Origin: a virus
Reading direction: 5' to 3' (one strand)
IMG/VR virus record: IMGVR_UViG_3300045988_125605
Location: 1-40,618 of that record
Length of the DNA: 40,618 nucleotides
Positions 31,235 to 38,715 of this stretch are shown piece after piece; the first letter of the stretch is position 1, and each line of letters starts with the position of its first letter. The position numbers and the translations under genes are program-made. The notes beneath the pieces were generated by a model that was not told where the DNA came from, ran no database searches, and worked only from the letters and a program-made list of their open reading frames with translations.

Positions 31235-32437
31235 ATGGCAACAGGAGACCAGACACTCATTAATTTTCCAAGAGAATCTACCATGCAGGAAATTTCCCAG
31301 GCATTGCAGACCATGGCATTTACCCAGTCGGCAGACCTGGAAAAAATTTCTACATGGGCACAGTTTAGCGGACTTTCAAGGAACGGAATCACCCAGAAGA
31401 TATTTGATTTCGGCGATCAGATCCTTGAAAAATGGACTGATACAGCTGCGAACAACAAGGAATACGACTTCCCGTGGCATATCACACACTTTGATACTGC
31501 AGAACTGGAGGATGGAGAGAATATCCAGGGAACCTTCCTGGAAGCTCATTACACCACACCGTTCGGCGTGCAGTTTAGCAACCGTGCCTTTTTACGTTGC
31601 CCGGATGGGCTTGCAGCCGGAACCTACAATGTAACGCTGGGCGCAAAATGGGGCGAGAAAGACGCACAGAAAGGTACAACATGGCAGTTTACACTTACAA
31701 AAGCTGTTCCTGCAGGCGGATCAGTAGCTGGATTTACCCAGATGCCGGATGTGGTGGCATCCAACTGGAAAGCAACCTCATATGCAGCGGATGGCATCAC
31801 TGTAATTGAGACAGTACCTATTACATCAGGATCCGGAGGAACATCCATGGGAACTATGCAGCTGTCGACCAGGAATAGCAACCTCAATTCCATGCAGGAG
31901 GTCGGATATGGATGGAATCGCTGGAAGTACTCAGCGGCTCGCCAGTGGCTTAATTCCGATCAGCCAAAAGGAAAGTGGTGGACAAAACAGGATGACTGGG
32001 ATATAGCACCTAGTCAGTTAGCCACAAAAGATGGATTCCTCTGCGGAATGCCGGCGGATATGGTTGCGGTACTGAAACCAATAAAAGTGATCACGCTTGC
32101 GAATACAGTTAACGACGGCGGAGTGACAGATGTAACATATGATAAGGTTTTTCTTGCATCGTTCGCGGAAATGAACATCAATCTCAATAGAGATGAAGGA
32201 ACTCCGCATGAATACTGGCAGCGAAGAACTAACTCCAAAACTCCGCTGGAACCATGGAAGACATATCCTTGTCTGATCCGGTATTCAGCGGCAAATCATA
32301 CCTCACCTCAGACCGTGTTTACACGCTCGGCCTATCGCGGCAACGCTAATCACGTCTTGAATGTAAGCAGCACGGGTGGAGCCAACAGCACGGGCGCGTG
32401 GTACGCGAATACTTATGCCCCGCTTGTCTTCATTTAA
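31235..32437 (+). CDS. DGR target (variable) protein, Mtd-like receptor-binding candidate
   Basis: The VR occupies the last 43 codons (C-terminus ...QTVFTRSAYRGNANHVLNVSSTGGANSTGAWYANTYAPLVFI). It lies in the tail fibre module. Confidence 0.85.
   Translation: MATGDQTLINFPRESTMQEISQALQTMAFTQSADLEKISTWAQFSGLSRNGITQKIFDFGDQILEKWTDTAANNKEYDFPWHITHFDTAELEDGENIQGTFLEAHYTTPFGVQFSNRAFLRCPDGLAAGTYNVTLGAKWGEKDAQKGTTWQFTLTKAVPAGGSVAGFTQMPDVVASNWKATSYAADGITVIETVPITSGSGGTSMGTMQLSTRNSNLNSMQEVGYGWNRWKYSAARQWLNSDQPKGKWWTKQDDWDIAPSQLATKDGFLCGMPADMVAVLKPIKVITLANTVNDGGVTDVTYDKVFLASFAEMNINLNRDEGTPHEYWQRRTNSKTPLEPWKTYPCLIRYSAANHTSPQTVFTRSAYRGNANHVLNVSSTGGANSTGAWYANTYAPLVFI
32303..32431 (+). repeat. DGR variable repeat (VR)
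   Basis: Aligns base for base with 32931..33059. There are 10 mismatches, all opposite TR adenines. Confidence 0.92.
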
Positions 32438-32452
32438 TCAGAAATCAATAAT

Positions 32453-32474
32453 CCCTGCACCCACGGATGCAGGG
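32453..32474 (+). promoter_or_regulatory. GC-rich hairpin downstream of VR (ccctgca-N8-tgcaggg)
   Basis: 7-bp stem about 22 nt after the VR end. Comparable hairpins flank the VR in characterised DGRs. Confidence 0.45.
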
Positions 32475-32925
32475 ATGGAAAGGAAAGAAAATGGCAGTTA
32501 AAGCAGGCGAAAGAAATGTTCCCGACACGCCACAGAATCGGCAGCTCAATGCCGCATGGTACGCGATGGAACTGGCAGTCTACACACTCGATATCTGCAA
32601 AAATAAAAATACTTTTCTTCCGGAATACCAGACATTTCTCACAGACAAAATTGTTCAAGCGGCACTGGATATTTACATAAATACATGGACTGCGAACAAC
32701 ATCAGAGTCACAGAGGAACGCAAGAAAGAACTATGGAGTTGGAGGAGTAAGCTGCAGTATCAGGCTATACTGGACTGCAACAACCTGCTTGCTTATATCG
32801 GTCTCGCCAGAAGAGTATTCCATCTAAGAGAGAAACGAGTGGAGTACTGGTCAGCCAAAACCATAGAGGCGAGGAATTATATTAAAAAGTGGAGAGAATC
32901 CGATAAACAAAGATATGGGACGTAG
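32467..32925 (+). CDS. avd: DGR accessory variability determinant (Avd-like four-helix-bundle protein)
   Basis: About 145-152 aa, basic, helical. It lies between the VR and the TR. The start may be 32491 (MAVKAGER). Confidence 0.75.
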   Translation: MQGWKGKKMAVKAGERNVPDTPQNRQLNAAWYAMELAVYTLDICKNKNTFLPEYQTFLTDKIVQAALDIYINTWTANNIRVTEERKKELWSWRSKLQYQAILDCNNLLAYIGLARRVFHLREKRVEYWSAKTIEARNYIKKWRESDKQRYGT

Positions 32926-32930
32926 GCTGA

Positions 32931-33059
32931 TCACCTCAGAACGTGTTTACACGCTCGGCCAATCGCGGCAACGCTAATAACGTCTTGAATGTAAACAACA
33001 CGGGTGGAGCCAACAACACGAACGCGTGGAACGCGAATACTTATGCCCCGATTGTCTTC
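32931..33059 (+). repeat. DGR template repeat (TR), non-coding RNA template
   Basis: Contains 13 AAC/AAT codons in the VR frame. ORF-track ORF 32943..33140 is a by-product of this repeat. Confidence 0.92.
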
Positions 33060-33218
33060 CTAAAAGCATTACGGTCTACGTATAGCGTAGATTGCCTTGA
33101 AGACTTAGACAAGGAGCCGAAATCCCTGGCGAAAGCCTAAACAATACTGCGGATAATCGAAAGAGACAGTGCGTGACTCACATGAGCCTGCCAGCACTGA
33201 GAAACTGCGGAACAAAAG

Positions 33219-34337
33219 ATGAAAAAAATAACAGATTTTGACAGTTTGCATGAGTCAATGACGAAATGCAGGAAAGGAGTTTCTTGGAAACCCTCTGTAA
33301 AATCATTTGTCTTAAACAGCGAAGAAAACCTTCTTCGTATGGAGAGACAGCTAAAAGAAGATACCTGGAAGAATGGGACGCCCAAACCGGTTCTGATTAC
33401 ATATCCGAAACGTCGGGAAGCATTGAGCATCCCGTTCAAAGACAGAATATACCAGAGAAGTATCAATGATAACTCTCTGTACCCTCAGATGACCAGAAGC
33501 TTTATTTATGCAAACTGCGCCTGCCAAACTGGAAAAGGCACAGATTTTGCGAGAAAGCTGATTAAAAAATATCTGTGGAATTATTTCTGCAACTACGGCT
33601 CAGATGGATGGATCGTCCAGATTGACATACATGGTTATTATCTCAACATGCGTCACAAGGATGTAGAGCATCAGATCTACCGCAACACAGATCCTGATAC
33701 CACAAGAATGTCATGCGGAGTATTGAGAGATCAGTATGCTGGCGAGAGCGGATACAATCCAGGGTCCCAAATGGTCCAGATTGCCGGTATCGCTCTTCTG
33801 GATCCGGTGGATCATTACGCCAAAGAGCAGCTGCATGTAAAGTATTATATCCGGTATATGGACGACTTCTGGATGCTCTTGCCAACAAAAGAACAGGCAG
33901 AAAAGACATACACCGAAACCGTTGAAAAGATACAGGCATATGGCCTGGAAATCAACGAAAAGAAATCCCATGTCGTCCCACTCAGAAAAGGATTTACGTT
34001 CTTAGGTTTCCGATACCGCATGACAGACACCGGGAAAGTTATCATGACGCTCAATCCAGACAGCGTAAAGCACGAAAGAAAAACTCTGGCCAGAATGGTA
34101 AATAAATCCAAAAGAGGGGAACTACCTCCGGAGAAAGTGGAAGAGCATCATAATGCCTGGCAGAATAATGCGGAAAAAGGAAACTCAAACAAAGTAAGAG
34201 AAAGAACAAGAAAATATCTAAAACAATTGAAAGGAGACGAAAAGAATGAAAGTAAAAAGAATGTCTCAGACACCAGCAGAGACGGCGGAGAACGAAAATC
34301 TCAAAGCAACTGTCGAAAGACAGAATCAGACCATTGA
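33219..34337 (+). CDS. DGR reverse transcriptase
   Basis: RT motifs: YNPGSQMVQIAG (GxxxSQ), YIRYMDDFWML (YMDD), FLGFRY. Confidence 0.9.
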   Translation: MKKITDFDSLHESMTKCRKGVSWKPSVKSFVLNSEENLLRMERQLKEDTWKNGTPKPVLITYPKRREALSIPFKDRIYQRSINDNSLYPQMTRSFIYANCACQTGKGTDFARKLIKKYLWNYFCNYGSDGWIVQIDIHGYYLNMRHKDVEHQIYRNTDPDTTRMSCGVLRDQYAGESGYNPGSQMVQIAGIALLDPVDHYAKEQLHVKYYIRYMDDFWMLLPTKEQAEKTYTETVEKIQAYGLEINEKKSHVVPLRKGFTFLGFRYRMTDTGKVIMTLNPDSVKHERKTLARMVNKSKRGELPPEKVEEHHNAWQNNAEKGNSNKVRERTRKYLKQLKGDEKNESKKNVSDTSRDGGERKSQSNCRKTESDH

Positions 34338-34449
34338 GAATCAGAAAGTAACAATCCAGTATCTGGCAGCAATGACGGATGTCTATATTCCAGAAGAGGA
34401 GGAAGAGGAAAATGTACAGAATTTTGCTGAAAATGAAGAAAATGTATAA
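34246..34449 (+). CDS. Hypothetical coiled-coil acidic protein (67 aa)
   Basis: AAAGGAGA SD. It overlaps the RT 3' end by 92 nt. Confidence 0.45.
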   Translation: MKVKRMSQTPAETAENENLKATVERQNQTIENQKVTIQYLAAMTDVYIPEEEEEENVQNFAENEENV

Positions 34450-34552
34450 CTATGAGGACTGGCTCAAAATGGTGTATCAGGCCAAGGAACGCGGAAAGCT
34501 GACCAAACATGACTACCAGGCTCTTCTCGAGGAGGACACAGAATGTGTATAG
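34412..34552 (+). CDS. Small XkdX-like protein (37-46 aa)
   Basis: GAGGAAGAGGA SD. MYNYEDWLKMVYQAKERGKLTKHDYQALLEE resembles XkdX-family peptides found before lysis genes. Confidence 0.3.
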   Translation: MYRILLKMKKMYNYEDWLKMVYQAKERGKLTKHDYQALLEEDTECV

Positions 34553-34870
34553 CAGCCGGAATCATCTTATATGTAACCGGAGTAATGACCGGTATTGCAT
34601 TGATCTGCATCGTGCAGACGAGGCACTAATGACGCAGCTGCAGATCATCCGGAAGCTCTGGTCCGCCATTTACGACCTTCTACTGTACACCCAGAAAGAT
34701 CCACGCCGAAAATCACTGGATGAAATAGAGACAATTTAGATCTGCTGGAGAGAGCCTGCCGAAAATATGAAAATACTGACGATAACGAGCTTTTTCGATA
34801 AGATTAGAGTTTGCATTTCTTACATCCAGGAGTTAATATATAACTGCAGACAGCGATGATGGACATAAAA

Positions 34871-34904
34871 AACGGAGGGCAGGAGCAAAATCCTGCCCTC
34901 CGTT
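34871..34904 (-). terminator. 13-bp GC-rich hairpin; intrinsic terminator on the minus strand
   Basis: aacggagggcagg-N8-cctgccctccgtt. On the minus strand it is followed by TTTTTTAT. Confidence 0.5.
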
Positions 34905-34938
34905 GCGTCCAGAGGAAAAATATGAAGAAAATCAGAGC

Positions 34939-34962
34939 AGAGCCGTAAGGCTCTTATTTTTA
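34939..34962 (+). terminator. Intrinsic terminator (agagcc-gtaa-ggctct plus T-tract)
   Basis: 6-bp stem, GNRA-type loop, then tatttttat. It separates the DGR/small-ORF region from the lysis genes. Confidence 0.5.
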
Positions 34963-35003
34963 TACCAAAATTGTGCCGGCGCAACCGGAGAAAGAGTGGA
35001 ATA

Positions 35004-35306
35004 GTGAAAGAAATACTTATCCAGACATATACTATTGTGTTACCGGTACTCTTGGGATACATTGTCTGGCTTCTGAAAAATCAGAAAAAAGACAGAGACG
35101 CTAACAGCAAAGGAACGATGCTTCTGCTTCGCGCCCAGCTCATAGAGTACCATGCAAAGTATACAGCACTTGGAACCATCCCGTCATATGCTTACCAAAA
35201 CTACTGTGAGATGTATGCAGCATATCACGAACTAGGCGGGAATGGCATGGTAACAAAAATGAAACAGGAAATCGAAGAGTTGCATATTAAAAGAAAAGGA
35301 GAATAA
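35004..35306 (+). CDS. Membrane protein of the lysis module (about 100 aa), N-terminal TM helix
   Basis: TYTIVLPVLLGYIVWLL. It lies immediately upstream of the holin. The start is uncertain (TTG 34971 or GTG 35004). Confidence 0.5.
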   Translation: MKEILIQTYTIVLPVLLGYIVWLLKNQKKDRDANSKGTMLLLRAQLIEYHAKYTALGTIPSYAYQNYCEMYAAYHELGGNGMVTKMKQEIEELHIKRKGE

Positions 35307-35308
35307 TC

Positions 35309-35602
35309 ATGGAACAGATTGTAAATTATGTAAAACCGGAACTTATTGTGGTAGCCATTGCCCTGTATTTTGTGGGAATGGCACTTAAGCAGGCACAGGC
35401 AGTAAAAGATAAGTACATCCCGCTTATCCTTGGCGGGATCAGCGTTGTGATTTGTGCAATGTATGTATTTGCTACAACTACGCTGGGGACACCACAGGAT
35501 ATTGTGATGGCAATCTTCACAGCTATTGTGCAAGGAATCCTGGTAGCTGGTCTCTCTACATACGTGAACCAGCTGATCAAACAGACACACAAAGACGAGT
35601 AA
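35309..35602 (+). CDS. Holin (three predicted hydrophobic segments)
   Basis: ELIVVAIALYFVGMAL, IPLILGGISVVICAMYVF, IVMAIFTAIVQGILVAGL. It lies directly upstream of the endolysin. Confidence 0.75.
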   Translation: MEQIVNYVKPELIVVAIALYFVGMALKQAQAVKDKYIPLILGGISVVICAMYVFATTTLGTPQDIVMAIFTAIVQGILVAGLSTYVNQLIKQTHKDE

Positions 35603-35650
35603 CTTGGGGATGAGAGATCATCCCCTTTGCCATGAAATAGGAGGCAACAC

Positions 35651-37192
35651 ATGAAAAAAAACAACGTTGAAGTACTGAGAAAAATCTTATACGCGGTAGA
35701 GAGTGGCGGCCAGGTATACGGCCGCCAAAATTATGCTGCATTCATCGGAGCTGGGGCGAACTGCTCTAACGAAAAGGCAATCACAATCGGAGCTGGTCAG
35801 TGGTATGCGGGGGAAGCCAAAAAGCTCTTGCAGAAGATCCAGAGAGCGAATCCGGCGCAGTTCAAAAAGCTGGACACGCAAGGCATCACAACAGATCTGC
35901 TCAAAAAGAATTGGTCTGCATATGCAATCAGTCCGTCTTCGGCTAAAGCGAAGTGCATCGTTACAATCATTAACTCAACTCTTGGCCGGAAATGCCAGGA
36001 TGAGCTGATGGACGAACAGATTACCGAATATACTACCAGTATTGCTAAGACTTATGGATCCATGCCAGATACGGCTATGATGGAGTGCATCAACATTATC
36101 CATCAGGGCGGAAGCTCTGCTCTGAAGAGAATCCTTGCCAAGACCGCGAAACCATACACGGCCAAAAGCATCTATGCAGCCTTAAATACGGATCCGGCTG
36201 ATTCACGTACCAATCAGGTAGGCGATTACGTCACACGCCAGAAAAAAGTGTATGAGTACATTACGAAGTATGCTACAGACACAGCGACCGGAACAGCTGC
36301 ATCTGCAGAGAACAAGAAGGAGGAAAGTGCAGTGTCAACAGTACAGGACAGAATCAACAAGGCTATCAGCTGGATGGAAGAAACAGCAAAGGACGATAGG
36401 CATGGATATTGCCAGGATCATCGTTGGGGCAAAGATGGGGACTATGATTGTTCTTCGGCCGTGATCACAGCATGGGAACAGGCAGGAGTGCCGGTCAAGA
36501 GCAAAGGAGCAACGTATACCGGAAATATGCTGTCTGTATTCAAAGCAAACGGATTCCAGGACGTGACAGCTCTGGTCAACAGATCTACCGGAGCTGGACT
36601 GGCAAGAGGCGACGTACTGCTTAACACCGTACATCATACTGCAATGTATTGCGGCAATGGAAAAGAAGTAGAGGCAAGCATTAACGAAAAAGGCACAGCT
36701 CACGGCGGCAAACCGGGAGATCAGACCGGCAGAGAGTTCCTGATCCGAAGCTACAGAAATTATCCATGGACCAATGTTCTGCGATACACCGGGGGAAACA
36801 GTACACCAGTTACAGTCAAGAATTATCTGGAAATGGGAGATTCAAGGTCAGCGGTAAAAACCATGCAGCTCATGCTGATTGAATGCGGATATTCTTGCGG
36901 ATCATATGGTGCAGACGGCGAGTTTGGATCCGGAACAGATGCCGCTCTAAGAAAATTCCAGAAAGACAACAGTCTTGTCGTAGATGGCCAGTATGGACCG
37001 GTATCAAAAGCCAAACTGACAGCTCTCCATAATACAAAAACTACTTCCGGAAAGAAAACAGTAGACGAACTTGCAAAAGAAGTCATTGCTGGAAAATGGG
37101 GCAATGGAGCTGATCGTAAAAAGAGACTGACTGCAGCTGGTTACGACTACAATGCAGTCCAGAAAAAAGTTAACAAACTGCTTAAAAAATAA
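35651..37192 (+). CDS. Multidomain endolysin: N-terminal muramidase-like region, NlpC/P60-type Cys-His peptidase, PG_binding_1 and CW_7 wall-binding motifs
   Basis: DYDCSSAVITAW...VHHTAMYCG (Cys/His). GADGEFGSGTDAALRKFQKDNSLVVDGQYGP (PG_binding_1). VIAGKWGNGADRKKRLTAAGYDYNAVQKKVNKLL (CW_7). Confidence 0.85.
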   Translation: MKKNNVEVLRKILYAVESGGQVYGRQNYAAFIGAGANCSNEKAITIGAGQWYAGEAKKLLQKIQRANPAQFKKLDTQGITTDLLKKNWSAYAISPSSAKAKCIVTIINSTLGRKCQDELMDEQITEYTTSIAKTYGSMPDTAMMECINIIHQGGSSALKRILAKTAKPYTAKSIYAALNTDPADSRTNQVGDYVTRQKKVYEYITKYATDTATGTAASAENKKEESAVSTVQDRINKAISWMEETAKDDRHGYCQDHRWGKDGDYDCSSAVITAWEQAGVPVKSKGATYTGNMLSVFKANGFQDVTALVNRSTGAGLARGDVLLNTVHHTAMYCGNGKEVEASINEKGTAHGGKPGDQTGREFLIRSYRNYPWTNVLRYTGGNSTPVTVKNYLEMGDSRSAVKTMQLMLIECGYSCGSYGADGEFGSGTDAALRKFQKDNSLVVDGQYGPVSKAKLTALHNTKTTSGKKTVDELAKEVIAGKWGNGADRKKRLTAAGYDYNAVQKKVNKLLKK

Positions 37193-37299: not shown

Positions 37300-38715
37300 T
37301 CACGGGACGATGATATCAAAGTACATCTTACCGGTTTTTTTATCGTATACGATCTGCTCCACGATCGTCCGGATCAGATTACCTTTTTCTTCATAGCTCA
37401 CATCCGGATCCTTAAGCACATCATTTACGGATCTGATTTCTTCCAGTATCTTTTCTCTGTCGATAGGCAGCTCCTTCACAGACTGCAGGTTCTGGAGTTC
37501 CTGTTCCAGGCGATGCCGGCTGTCAGCCAGACGCATCTTGTTATCCTTATATTCCTCAAGAGTATCAATTCCGTTCTCGTATGCATCCCGGATCCTGTCT
37601 TCCTTGACGGAAAGCCTTGACAGCTCTCTCTGCAGCTGCTCGATAGCTGCAGTGTTATCAATCGTAGACTGACTCTTGCGGACATAGGAGAAGTCAGCTC
37701 CAGCAAGAATCTCATCAAAGTAATTAATTACAGCTTTTTCCGCTTCCTCAATACGGATGGCAGAGCTCCCCTTGTGAAAACCCTTCGTATACTTCCAGCA
37801 TTGGAAGTAAGAATATCCACGACAGCCGTTGCGAGCAAGTGTACCTCCACAGGTGGAACATCTGAGAAGACCAGACAGCCAATGCTTACAGGCAGATACG
37901 CTCCGCGCCTTTGCCGGTCGATGTCTGGCCGCGATCAGCTCCTGACGGTGCTGGAAGCGTTCTTTCGACAGCCTTACTTCATGCGATCCCTCGAACTCAA
38001 TTCCGTTCCATGCAACGGTACCACAATAGAAGGCGTTCTGCAGGATACGCATCACAGTCCGACGCTCAAACGGAGTACCGCGTCTGGTCCGATATCCCAG
38101 ATCGTTACATCTCCTTGCGATTGCAGTCGGATCCAGATTACCATTATCGTACAGATCCATGATAAGTGCGACGATAGCATACTCACCCTCATCGATCACA
38201 AAAGGTTTTCCACCACCGACAGCCCTGTAGCCAAGAGACGGCACAGACTGGTACCCATGTTGCAGAGCTTTTTCCTTCATGCCGCGCAGCACCTCGCCGG
38301 ACAGCCGAATAGAGTAGTATTCATCCATCCATTCTATGATTCTTTCGATCAGACTCCCGAAAGGACCATCTACAAGCGGCTCAGATACGCTGACTACCTC
38401 GACATTATCTTTCTTAAGCATACTCTTATATACGATAGACTCTTCCTGATTCCTGGCGAATCGAGAGAACTTCCAGACCAGGATCACGTCGATCGGATGC
38501 GAAGACTGCTTCGCAAGTGCGATCATCCTCTGAAATTCTGGACGCTTCAAAGCATGCCGCCCGGATACACTTTCCGAAAAAATAAATTCACTGGGCACAA
38601 TAATACCATTCTTTTTGGCATATTCTAGCAGCAGACGTCTCTGAGCATCCGGAGAGAGATCTGTCTGATCATCTGTCGAGACACGCACATAGAGTGCACC
38701 TACACGATTTTCCAT
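37300..38715 (-). CDS. int: Large serine recombinase (phage integrase)
   Basis: N-terminal resolvase motif ALYVRVSTDDQ, recombinase domain, Cys cluster CKHWLSGLLRCSTCGG...FQC, and a C-terminal coiled coil. 471 aa. Confidence 0.92.
   Translation of the reverse strand: MENRVGALYVRVSTDDQTDLSPDAQRRLLLEYAKKNGIIVPSEFIFSESVSGRHALKRPEFQRMIALAKQSSHPIDVILVWKFSRFARNQEESIVYKSMLKKDNVEVVSVSEPLVDGPFGSLIERIIEWMDEYYSIRLSGEVLRGMKEKALQHGYQSVPSLGYRAVGGGKPFVIDEGEYAIVALIMDLYDNGNLDPTAIARRCNDLGYRTRRGTPFERRTVMRILQNAFYCGTVAWNGIEFEGSHEVRLSKERFQHRQELIAARHRPAKARSVSACKHWLSGLLRCSTCGGTLARNGCRGYSYFQCWKYTKGFHKGSSAIRIEEAEKAVINYFDEILAGADFSYVRKSQSTIDNTAAIEQLQRELSRLSVKEDRIRDAYENGIDTLEEYKDNKMRLADSRHRLEQELQNLQSVKELPIDREKILEEIRSVNDVLKDPDVSYEEKGNLIRTIVEQIVYDKKTGKMYFDIIVP

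What the first reader, a model, noticed from the sequence alone, without database searches (positions are those of the whole stretch)
31235..34337. Complete diversity-generating retroelement targeting a tail-module protein
The last 129 bp of CDS 31235..32437 (VR, 32303..32431) align without gaps to a non-coding copy 628 bp downstream (TR, 32931..33059). I counted 10 mismatches. Every one is an adenine in TR (32941, 32961, 32979, 32995, 32998, 33016, 33021, 33022, 33030, 33051), replaced in VR by C, T, C, G, G, G, G, G, T and C. No non-adenine position differs. In the VR frame the TR carries 13 AAC/AAT codons. The changes convert Asn to T, Y, H, S, S, S, G and Y, plus Ile to Leu. An Avd-like gene lies between VR and TR. 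A reverse transcriptase with GxxxSQ and YMDD motifs follows TR, and a GC hairpin lies about 22 nt after VR. This is the canonical mtd-avd-TR-brt layout, here in a Firmicutes-type siphovirus whose fibre module has another large fibre upstream.
Basis: partly seen in the sequence, partly recalled or inferred. Interest (0 to 1): 0.75.

Follow-up and report, generated by a model that had tools for sequence, protein, structure and literature searches.

The report
Phage diversity-generating retroelement, complete and active
This is a complete, recently active diversity-generating retroelement in a human-gut phage that rewrites 13 codons at the tip of a surface protein; it is a well-supported but ordinary example of a known kind of system.

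Summary
VR 32303-32431 and TR 32931-33059 align without gaps, with 10 mismatches, all at TR adenines (P about 1.4e-6), and TR carries 13 AAY codons. The cassette is complete: target gene (DUF6273 domain), VR, IMH-like end, conserved hairpin, Avd, TR, structured spacer RNA and RT.

Evidence from related sequences is strong. Twenty-two loci in total, 19 after removing exact duplicates, show 282 mismatches at TR adenines against 5 elsewhere. Near-isogenic phages from different samples differ only at VR positions opposite TR adenines. All 13 AAY codon positions are hypervariable within the window's own 90% protein cluster, and 12 of the 13 across 120 more distant homologues.

- The tenth mismatch (TR A33051 / VR C32423, Ile to Leu) is not mutagenesis. 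It is A/C in 22 of 22 loci and lies in the predicted TR:spacer primer duplex, so it marks IMH* versus IMH. True mutagenic changes number 9.
- The RT has no GxxxSQ motif. The aligned signature is PGSQMVQ.

A C-type lectin fold could not be shown here. DGRs with DUF6273 targets in gut Firmicutes phages are already published, so this is a new member of a known kind, and interest is low to moderate.

The parts
31235..32437 (+). Target (variable-protein) gene, 400 aa: N-terminal helices, a beta-rich domain, and a C-terminal DUF6273 domain (aa 218-391) that carries VR
   Evidence: ORF. Pfam DUF6273 E 5.4e-12 and phrog_19280 E 1.7e-32. AF2 model with pLDDT 89.9. BFVD neighbours are DUF6273 proteins of gut Siphoviridae, E 1e-23. 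2595 homologues found.
32303..32431 (+). Variable repeat (VR): the last 43 codons of the target before Ile-stop
   Evidence: All 13 AAY codon positions vary within the window's own 90% cluster. Across 120 homologues, 12 of the 13 have 11-13 residue types.
32417..32431 (+). IMH-like 3' end of VR (GCCCCGCTTGTCTTC). C32423 is the fixed difference from TR
   Evidence: TR has A and VR has C here in 22 of 22 loci. The most 3' variable adenine seen in any locus corresponds to TR 33043 (L009).
32451..32476 (+). Inverted repeat (hairpin or cruciform) downstream of VR: ATCCCTGCA-CCCACGGA-TGCAGGGAT
   Evidence: DNA fold -9.8 kcal/mol, z -1.95. Identical in the 10 metagenome loci and, with its GC core intact, in the IMG/VR loci while the flanks vary. 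The distant locus L011 has a different GC hairpin at the same place. No T-run follows on the + strand.
32491..32925 (+). avd (accessory variability determinant), 144 aa. An alternative upstream ATG at 32467 gives 152 aa
   Evidence: phrog_3206 'Avd protein of DGR' E 1.9e-5. Homologues are named 'Avd-like protein' in nr. AF2 gives a four-helix bundle, pLDDT 88.5. Top Foldseek hits are 2rld and 2gsc (S23-IVP family), TM 0.83-0.87.
32917..32927 (+). GGGACGTAGGC upstream of TR, proposed as the 5' strand of a cPRT-stop-like duplex with spacer 33116-33126
   Evidence: Invariant apart from the internal loop in 11 loci. It is non-coding in the relatives whose avd ends earlier. The pairing is possible but never varies, so covariation neither supports nor contradicts it.
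32931..33059 (+). Template repeat (TR), non-coding, 37 adenines. Adenines from 32933 to 33043 are seen mutated in VRs of the family
   Evidence: The TR core is identical in L015, L017 and L018, which carry different VRs.
33048..33057 (+). 3' end of TR (CCGATTGTCT, within IMH*), predicted to pair with spacer AGACAAGG (33107-33114) as a template:primer duplex. A33051 is bulged
   Evidence: RNAalifold consensus. Pair counts: 8 pairs, 98.9% paired, one compensatory change in L011. The analogy is to Bordetella TR117-129:Sp47-56 (bioRxiv 10.1101/2023.10.23.563531).
33060..33218 (+). Spacer (Sp) RNA region between TR and the RT. It contains a stem-loop at 33064-33098, the primer strand at 33107-33114, GCCGAAATCCC at 33116-33126, a short hairpin at 33128-33137, the conserved single strand UAAACAAUA, and a long stem-loop at 33147-33210
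   Evidence: Over 45 pairs, 97% of cells are paired, 16 pairs change on both sides, and 0 of 500 shuffles reach this. Slid controls give 32-41% paired.
33219..34337 (+). Reverse transcriptase, 372 aa: YMDD at aa 213-216, motif 4 PGSQMVQ at aa 181-187, and a basic C-terminal tail
   Evidence: RVT_1 E 2e-12 and phrog_1423 E 2.9e-70. hhalign to BPP-1 Brt gives probability 97.9, E 5e-13, over 302 columns. The tblastn relatives that could be checked against the literature or the record's own features belong to DGR-bearing phages.

Best explanation
The region is a complete diversity-generating retroelement of a temperate siphovirus-like phage from the human gut.

Proposed mechanism:
- A transcript covering the 3' end of avd, TR and the spacer folds into a ribonucleoprotein with the RT and Avd.
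- The 3' end of TR (33048-33057) pairs with spacer 33107-33114.
- cDNA synthesis is primed in cis just upstream of that duplex, at about 33044-33047, and runs 5' through TR.
- The RT misincorporates opposite adenines.
- The adenine-mutagenised cDNA replaces VR (32303 to about 32416) in the target gene. The IMH-like end (32417-32431) and the downstream hairpin (32451-32476) guide this step.
- The outcome is randomisation of up to 13 Asn (AAY) codons in the C-terminal DUF6273 domain of a 400-aa virion-surface protein, most likely a receptor-binding protein, while the scaffold stays constant.

What is shown: the anatomy, the adenine specificity, the hypervariability in natural populations, the fold of Avd, the homology of the RT to Brt, and covariation in the spacer stem-loops.

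What is inferred by analogy with Bordetella phage BPP-1: cis-priming and its exact site, the roles of the hairpin and IMH, and the receptor-binding function of the target.
For: - TR/VR pair: 10 of 10 mismatches fall at TR adenines, P = 1.4e-6.
- Family level: 149 A versus 3 non-A mismatches in 12 loci, plus 133 versus 2 in 10 further loci. L004/L005 are not both counted, L020/L021 are identical to each other, and L009, L010 and L013 share one TR.
- Near-isogenic pairs: L009/L013 have 0 mismatches in 2905 nt of flanks but 16 VR differences, all opposite TR adenines. L019/L023 have 1 mismatch in about 1600 nt of flanks and 21 VR differences, all opposite TR adenines. The window's TR core is identical in L015, L017 and L018, which have different VRs.
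- Protein level: across 120 homologues, 12 of the 13 AAY positions carry 11-13 residue types at 2.3-3.0 bits, against a mean of 0.28 bits elsewhere. All 13 vary within the window's own 90% cluster of 419 members.
- Avd: PHROG hit, a four-helix bundle that matches the S23-IVP structures 2rld and 2gsc.
- RT: end-to-end homology to Brt. Its phage relatives include the known DGR phages nd12, Lelie and the Bordetella phages.
- Spacer RNA structure is supported by compensatory changes.
- The synteny tail fibre, target, avd, TR, RT, holin, endolysin is the same as in BPP-1.
Against: - No read-level data from this sample were available, so activity in this particular genome is inferred from relatives. 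The only other contigs carrying the identical RT have the identical VR.
- The RT lacks the textbook (I/V/L)GxxxSQ signature and has PGSQMVQ instead.
- Avd shows no sequence-profile similarity to Bordetella Avd or to Pfam PF05635.
- The target shows no similarity to Mtd by hhalign. Foldseek against PDB found no C-type lectin DGR target.
- The primer duplex and the cPRT-stop-like duplex are nearly invariant, so covariation cannot test them.
- The hairpin loop is not the 4-nt GRNA loop described for phage DGRs (PMC3240598).
Confidence: 0.95

Rival explanations
1. A once-functional DGR that is now inert in this genome. The TR/VR pattern would then be a historical record, not a sign of ongoing mutagenesis.
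For: The seven contigs that encode the identical RT show the same neighbouring genes, and the one I examined (L014) is 100% identical over 7.1 kb, VR included. Relatives can decay: L012 has lost the 3' part of avd, TR, the spacer and RT residues 1-141.
Against: All ORFs are intact. YMDD, the R74 equivalent (R66) and Q187 are conserved. TR, the IMH-like end, the hairpin and the spacer structure are all intact. Loci with the same TR core carry different VRs, so this lineage diversified after its last common TR.
Confidence: 0.1
2. The element is a DGR, but its target is not a tail receptor-binding protein. It could instead be a capsid-decoration or other surface adhesin (Hoc-like), for example one that binds mucus or glycans.
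For: The DUF6273 region hits phrog_10993 'Hoc-like head decoration', E 2e-12. The only PDB neighbour is the DUF6273 N-terminal domain of a secreted IgA peptidase (PMC12402451). No tail-fibre domain was detected in the N-terminal half. A terminator-like hairpin at 31174-31200 separates the gene from the tail genes.
Against: The gene sits directly after the tail and fibre genes and before the lysis genes, as mtd does in BPP-1. The same module forms the C-terminus of proteins of up to about 1290 aa, as is usual for modular fibres. One BFVD neighbour is named 'Tail-collar fiber protein'. Published DUF6273 DGR targets are interpreted as receptor-binding proteins (PMC10743442).
Confidence: 0.2
3. 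This is not a DGR. A chance or recombinational duplication of the gene's 3' end happens to lie next to an unrelated RT, such as a group II intron, retron or defence RT.
For: The best-scoring NCBIfam model is the group II intron RT, E 1e-23, below its cut-off. A profile search of PDB scores a group II maturase slightly above bRT.
Against: The mismatch pattern has P = 1.4e-6 in the window and is 282 to 5 across the family. Rfam finds no intron or retron RNA. No maturase or endonuclease domain is present, and the group II hits cover only the palm and thumb, whereas Brt aligns end to end. All DRT and retron models score weakly. Avd is present.
Confidence: 0.01

Closest known systems
Bordetella phage BPP-1 DGR (mtd-avd-TR-brt)
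   Same: The gene order is the same, as is the neighbourhood of tail fibre upstream and lysis genes downstream. VR lies at the 3' end of the target. AAY codons are diversified. A GC-rich IMH-like end differs from TR. An inverted repeat follows VR. The RT is homologous end to end (hhalign probability 97.9, 26% identity). The spacer RNA has an analogous order of elements: stem-loop, primer strand, short hairpin, A-rich single strand, long stem-loop (bioRxiv 10.1101/2023.10.23.563531).
   Different: The target shows no detectable similarity to Mtd. Avd is similar in fold only, not in sequence. The RT motif is PGSQMVQ rather than IGSLTSQ. The hairpin has a 9-bp stem with an 8-nt loop (or 3 nt after two extra pairs), not the GAAA tetraloop. 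IMH differs from IMH* by a single fixed base in this window. The host is a Gram-positive gut anaerobe rather than Bordetella.
DGRs of Faecalibacterium prophages with DUF6273 targets (Lelie, CP11, Roos, Pioen; PMC11792537)
   Same: These are gut Firmicutes temperate phages, the target carries DUF6273, and VR maps to the C-terminus of that domain. The RT of phage Lelie is a tblastn relative (29.7% identity, E 3e-39).
   Different: The RT identity is low, and the host lineage is probably different: Blautia, judging from the source name of homologue P0031. The target here is a single small 400-aa protein. No cultured phage shares DNA similarity with this region.
Phages nd4 and nd12: 'tentaclins' and their second DUF6273 targets (PMC10743442)
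   Different: In the tentaclins, DUF6273 and VR are N-terminal and are followed by Ig-like domains. Here the domain and VR are C-terminal, as in nd4/nd12 target2.

Membership tests
Diversity-generating retroelement (DGR) | An imperfect TR/VR repeat pair whose differences are confined to adenines in TR | tested here: met
   In the window, 10 of 10 mismatches are at TR adenines, P 1.4e-6. Over 22 related loci the count is 282 at A versus 5 elsewhere.
Diversity-generating retroelement (DGR) | VR lies inside a protein-coding target gene, and the diversified adenines sit at codon positions 1 and 2 (AAY codons) | tested here: met
   VR forms the last 43 codons before Ile-stop of CDS 31235-32437. TR has 13 AAY codons. 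All 10 mismatches fall at codon positions 1 or 2.
Diversity-generating retroelement (DGR) | An RT with an intact catalytic YxDD that belongs to the DGR RT clade | tested here: inconclusive
   YMDD is present. Homology to Brt runs end to end. Named tblastn relatives include phages reported to carry DGRs: nd12, Lelie and the Bordetella phages. No reference phylogeny could be built, and a group II maturase scores about as well over the palm and thumb.
Diversity-generating retroelement (DGR) | The signature RT motif 4, (I/V/L)GxxxSQ | tested here: not met
   The aligned motif is PGSQMVQ, invariant in 9 relatives. This motif is typical rather than obligatory: it is present in about 90% of DGR RTs, 'VQ' is a listed variant, and '(L/I/V)G' is described as almost invariant (PMC3521204). 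Pro at the first position is therefore unusual. The terminal Gln, which distinguishes DGR RTs from the QGxxxSP type, is kept.
Diversity-generating retroelement (DGR) | An accessory Avd protein: a small, basic four-helix bundle of the S23-IVP family | tested here: met
   phrog_3206 E 1.9e-5. AF2 four-helix bundle with pLDDT 88.5. Foldseek top hits 2rld and 2gsc with TM 0.83-0.87. There is no Pfam hit and no profile hit to bAvd. Pentamer formation cannot be tested here.
Diversity-generating retroelement (DGR) | IMH at the 3' end of VR: a GC-rich start, non-identical to IMH* in TR, marking the 3' limit of mutagenesis | tested here: met
   VR has GCCCCGCTTGTCTTC and TR has GCCCCGATTGTCTTC. The A/C difference is fixed in 22 of 22 loci, and no variable adenine lies 3' of TR 33043. 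The function itself is inferred.
Diversity-generating retroelement (DGR) | A GC-rich inverted repeat downstream of VR (found in about a third of DGRs, PMC5758913) | tested here: met
   The repeat lies at 32451-32476 and is conserved. L011 has a different GC hairpin at the same place. The loop is not the 4-nt GRNA loop (PMC3240598).
Diversity-generating retroelement (DGR) | Cis-acting RNA around TR: template:primer duplex, cPRT-stop duplex, Avd-binding and RT-binding stem-loops | tested here: inconclusive
   The stem-loops are supported by compensatory changes: 16 pairs change on both sides and 0 of 500 shuffles reach this. The two inter-segment duplexes can form but never vary.
Diversity-generating retroelement (DGR) | Demonstrated mutagenic retrohoming | not testable with these tools
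   Only indirect evidence is available: isogenic natural genomes whose VRs differ opposite TR adenines.
C-type-lectin-fold DGR variable proteins (Mtd/TvpA class) | VR displayed on a C-type lectin fold | tested here: inconclusive
Group II intron, retron or defence RT (DRT/UG) | The family-specific RT model scores above its cut-off, and the associated RNA or effector is present | tested here: not met
   All NCBIfam hits fall far below their cut-offs (84 bits against 300 for group II). Rfam finds no intron or retron RNA. The PADLOC DRT models score weakly.

The most novel reading that the evidence does not exclude
This clade of gut-phage DGR RTs carries Pro where bRT has Ile181, a residue shown to promote adenine mutagenesis, and Val where bRT has Ser186 (PGxxxVQ). 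It still produces clean adenine-specific diversification. In addition, a single fixed A/C difference, bulged within the predicted TR:spacer primer duplex, may be all that distinguishes donor (IMH*) from recipient (IMH). If both hold, the family would be a natural minimal variant for working out which RT residues and which IMH bases are truly required for adenine mutagenesis and for the directionality of homing.
Probability: 0.3. Interest if true: 0.4.

Novelty: new member of a known kind. Interest (0 to 1): 0.27.

Why it matters
The element gives a clean and abundant natural data set for DGR biology in gut Firmicutes phages. The target family has thousands of members, and many near-isogenic genomes carry different VRs. 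The data define the mutagenised window (TR 32933-33043) and locate the likely cDNA start. They also show that the RNA architecture solved for the Bordetella element is recognisable in a distant Gram-positive phage, and that an RT with an atypical signature motif still works.

For annotation, the result labels a DUF6273 protein as the hypervariable protein, probably the host-recognition protein, of a widespread human-gut phage. It does not reveal a new kind of system.

Tried and rejected
- Megablast of 29000-36000 against INPHARED phages found no match.
- A GTDB genome scan with the single RT sequence found no relative. With the RT alignment it found only distant relatives (54% identity or less) in Clostridia MAGs, plus one MAG binned as Sphaerochaeta, so the host could not be fixed that way.
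- Sequence searches of PDB with Avd (single sequence and profile) and with the target gave nothing meaningful.
- Pfam and NCBIfam gave no Avd hit.
- Foldseek of the whole target model against PDB did not retrieve Mtd, TvpA or any lectin. hhalign of the target profile against Mtd and of the Avd profile against bAvd was negative.
- Rfam has no family matching the spacer RNA.
- Searches for a second, remote VR in the window were negative.
- Looking up contigs with the identical RT, to find VR variants of this exact genome, returned only an identical copy.
- I first considered pairing of the upstream AGGCT with spacer AGCCT (33135-33139). I dropped it because those spacer bases form the local hairpin GGC-GAAA-GCC, which L011 supports with a compensatory change.
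- The idea that the hairpin is the target gene's terminator was rejected, because no T-run follows it on the + strand.
Full report
**1. The observation**

- I compared the window with itself at an offset of 628 nt. Each is an A in the downstream copy.
- Identity collapses immediately outside these limits on both sides.
- TR holds 37 A among 129 bases. The chance that ten random mismatches all fall on A is 1.4e-6.
- VR is in frame with CDS 31235-32437. In that frame TR has 13 AAC/AAT codons, and nine of the ten mismatches lie in them, all at codon positions 1 or 2.
- A pattern with every TR adenine masked finds only these two copies in the window, and a relaxed BLAST finds no partial third copy.

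**2. The proteins**

Target (400 aa):
- It matches Pfam DUF6273 over aa 218-391 (E 5e-12).
- Its family is very large: 2595 proteins with E below 1e-5 in the 90% clustered set, and 1644 representatives at 50% clustering.
- In many of these proteins the module forms the C-terminus of a much longer protein.

The gene between VR and TR:
- It has no Pfam or NCBIfam hit.
- It matches phrog_3206 'Avd protein of DGR' (E 1.9e-5), and some homologues are named 'Avd-like protein' in nr.
- Its AlphaFold model (pLDDT 88.5) is a four-helix bundle. The best PDB neighbours are 2rld and 2gsc, which belong to the S23 ribosomal / intervening-sequence protein family, with TM 0.83-0.87. Avd is described as resembling this family (bioRxiv 10.1101/2023.10.23.563531).
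- A profile comparison with Bordetella Avd is negative, so the relationship rests on the fold and on the PHROG profile.

RT:
- It has an RVT_1 domain and RYMDDF and matches phrog_1423 at E 2.9e-70.
- It aligns end to end with the Bordetella Brt (phmmer E 6e-10; hhalign probability 97.9, 26% identity over 302 columns).
- Group II maturases score similarly, but only over the palm and thumb.
- All retron, DRT and group II models fall far below their cut-offs, and Rfam finds no intron or retron RNA.
- Its tblastn relatives among deposited phages include Phage nd12, Roseburia phage Shimadzu, Faecalibacterium phages Lelie, Brigit and Toutatis, Vibrio phage VP585 and Bordetella phages. Several of these are known DGR carriers.

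**3. A correction on the RT motif**

- Three independent alignments, and the alignment to a group II maturase, put PGSQMVQ (aa 181-187) opposite bRT IGSLTSQ.
- The heptapeptide is invariant in nine relatives down to 50% identity.
- The published signature is (I/V/L)GxxxSQ. The '(L/I/V)G' part is called almost invariant, and 'VQ' is listed among rare variants of the last two residues (PMC3521204).
- bRT Ile181 promotes adenine mutagenesis (PMC7826257). This clade has Pro there and is still adenine-specific.
- The equivalents of R74 (R66 here) and Q187 are conserved.

**4. Evidence from related elements**

IMG/VR loci:
- The RT retrieved 13 IMG/VR loci with 53-94% RT identity.
- Every locus that contains both repeats shows the same pattern. 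Over the 118-121 nt core of 12 loci there are 149 mismatches at TR adenines and 3 elsewhere.

Metagenome contigs:
- Ten more contigs from unrelated samples encode an Avd identical to P0121, which is 99% identical to the window's Avd. They add 133 mismatches at adenines and 2 elsewhere.

Near-isogenic comparisons, which are the most telling:
- L009 and L013 come from different metagenomes. They are identical over 2905 nt flanking VR, TR included, but differ at 16 VR positions, all opposite TR adenines.
- L019 and L023 differ at 1 of about 1600 flanking bases and at 21 VR positions, all opposite TR adenines.
- The window's own TR core is identical in L015, L017 and L018, and each of these has a different VR.

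Protein level:
- Across 120 homologues, 12 of the 13 AAY codon positions carry 11-13 residue types (2.3-3.0 bits), against a mean of 0.28 bits for the rest of the protein.
- The thirteenth position (aa 379) is AAC in this TR. It varies within the window's own 90% cluster, where all 13 positions vary.
It shows recent activity in this lineage, though not in this exact genome. The only other contig examined that carries the identical RT is identical throughout.

**5. The tenth mismatch**

- TR A33051 opposite VR C32423 (Ile to Leu) is A/C in 22 of 22 loci, including the distant L011. Leu occupies that position in 118 of 120 homologues.
- Random mutagenesis would not give a single fixed base.
- The most 3' adenine seen to vary anywhere corresponds to TR 33043 (L009).
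- GCCCCG(A/C)TTGTCTTC therefore behaves as IMH* in TR and IMH in VR: a GC-rich start, a non-identical sequence, and the 3' limit of mutagenesis, as described for DGRs in general (PMC5758913).
- True mutagenic substitutions in the window number nine.

**6. The RNA**

- I aligned the segment upstream of TR, the 3' end of TR and the spacer from 11 distinct loci and counted pairs for a structure modelled on the Bordetella RNP (bioRxiv 10.1101/2023.10.23.563531).
- Of 45 pairs, 97% of cells are paired and 16 pairs change on both sides. No shuffle out of 500 reaches this, and sliding the partners gives only 32-41% paired.
- The compensatory changes are concentrated in the stem-loop just after TR (33064-33098, analogous to the Avd-binding stem-loop), in the short hairpin 33128-33137, and in the long stem-loop 33147-33210 (analogous to the RT-binding element).
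- TR 33048-33057 can pair with spacer 33107-33114, analogous to the template:primer duplex. One compensatory change in L011 supports this.
- A33051 is bulged within that duplex. If cDNA synthesis starts just 5' of the duplex, as in Bordetella, A33051 is never copied. That would explain why the A/C difference stays fixed.
- GGGACGTAGGC (32917-32927) can pair with GCCGAAATCCC (33116-33126), analogous to the cPRT-stop duplex. It never varies, so covariation is silent. In most relatives avd ends earlier and the element is non-coding, yet it is still conserved. This points to a nucleic-acid role.
- Caveat: I derived the structure from these same sequences, which inflates the paired percentage relative to the slid controls.
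- The authors of the Bordetella structure have already reported such RNA elements in 207 of 278 DGRs that have an Avd homologue, so this agrees with known biology.

**7. The hairpin**

- ATCCCTGCA-CCCACGGA-TGCAGGGAT lies at 32451-32476, 19 nt after VR (DNA fold -9.8 kcal/mol, z -1.95).
- It is identical in all 10 metagenome loci. Its GC core is conserved in the IMG/VR loci while the flanks vary.
- L011 has an unrelated GC hairpin (GGGCGGCGAA-CGCT-TTCGCCGCCC) at the same place. The structure is conserved but the sequence is not.
- No T-run follows on the + strand.
- This fits the hairpin/cruciform that boosts homing in BPP-1, although the loop is not the 4-nt GRNA loop reported for phage DGRs (PMC3240598).

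**8. The target's fold and role**

- The AlphaFold model built from 48 diverse homologues is confident (pLDDT 89.9, pTM 0.87).
- Against PDB, the only significant neighbour is the DUF6273 N-terminal domain of the Thomasclavelia ramosa IgA peptidase (9qa6, E 2e-5). No Mtd, TvpA or lectin match appeared (PMC12402451).
- Against BFVD, the neighbours are DUF6273 proteins of gut Siphoviridae and one 'Tail-collar fiber protein'.
- hhalign to Mtd is negative.
- The tail assignment rests on gene order: tape measure, a 1513-aa tail protein, two fibre-like genes, the target, then avd, TR and RT, followed by holin and endolysin. BPP-1 has the same order.
- A weak hit of the domain to a Hoc-like PHROG leaves open that the protein is a capsid or other surface protein.

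**9. Context**

- The window is a temperate siphovirus-like genome. It encodes a terminase, portal, major capsid protein, major tail protein, tape measure, endolysin and a large serine integrase, and no sheath gene was seen.
- Its first and last 55 nt are identical, which indicates a circular assembly of a complete genome of about 40.56 kb.
- An identical 7.1 kb stretch occurs in a human gut metagenome.
- A homologous cassette with the same synteny lies on contigs of up to 265 kb, and one source names that homologue as Blautia obeum.
- A Firmicutes host is therefore likely, but it is not shown for this particular genome.

**10. Verdict**

- It is a new member of a known kind.
- The points of modest specialist interest are the atypical RT signature (PGxxxVQ), the single-base IMH/IMH* distinction that coincides with the predicted primer duplex, and the size of the natural variant set.

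Noticed in passing
window 1-55 and 40564-40618: The first 55 nt are repeated exactly at the end of the window. This is the usual sign of a circular assembly, so the window is probably a complete phage genome of about 40.56 kb.
   Followed up: partly
window 10571-10645: A tRNA-Ile gene with anticodon TAT lies upstream of the terminase genes.
   Followed up: no
window 31174-31200: A terminator-like hairpin followed by a T-run sits between the preceding fibre-like gene and the DGR target gene. The cassette may therefore be transcribed separately from the tail operon.
   Followed up: no
L012 about 5950-6010 (IMGVR_UViG_3300045988_078796): This relative has a deletion of about 955 nt that removes the 3' part of avd, TR, the spacer and RT residues 1-141, while VR and the hairpin remain. 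It is a decayed DGR with a frozen VR.
   Followed up: partly
window 33759-33779 (RT aa 181-187): RT motif 4 is PGSQMVQ rather than (I/V/L)GxxxSQ, and it is invariant in relatives down to 50% identity. Pro replaces the bRT Ile181 that promotes adenine mutagenesis (PMC7826257, PMC3521204).
   Followed up: partly
window 32917-32927; L001-L010 upstream of TR: In the window, avd runs on through the conserved GGGAYGTAGGC element (its C-terminus reads ...RYGT*). In most relatives avd stops about 12-15 nt earlier (...RYS*) and the same element is non-coding, so its conservation is at the nucleic-acid level.
   Followed up: partly
window 37300-38715 (-) and 39393-40583 (-): A large serine recombinase/integrase (phrog_95, E 5e-108) and an FtsK/SpoIIIE-like protein lie downstream of the lysis genes, which points to a temperate lifestyle.
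   Followed up: no
L025 (CAMOUY010000014.1): The closest RT relative in the GTDB representative genomes (54% identity) lies on a 32-kb contig of a MAG labelled Sphaerochaeta, whereas all the other relatives are in Clostridia MAGs. This may be a phage contig that was binned into the wrong genome.
   Followed up: no
VR versus TR across 12 loci: The substitution spectrum at TR adenines, read on the coding strand, is A>G 64, A>T 59 and A>C 26. C is under-represented. Whether this reflects RT bias or selection was not examined.
   Followed up: no
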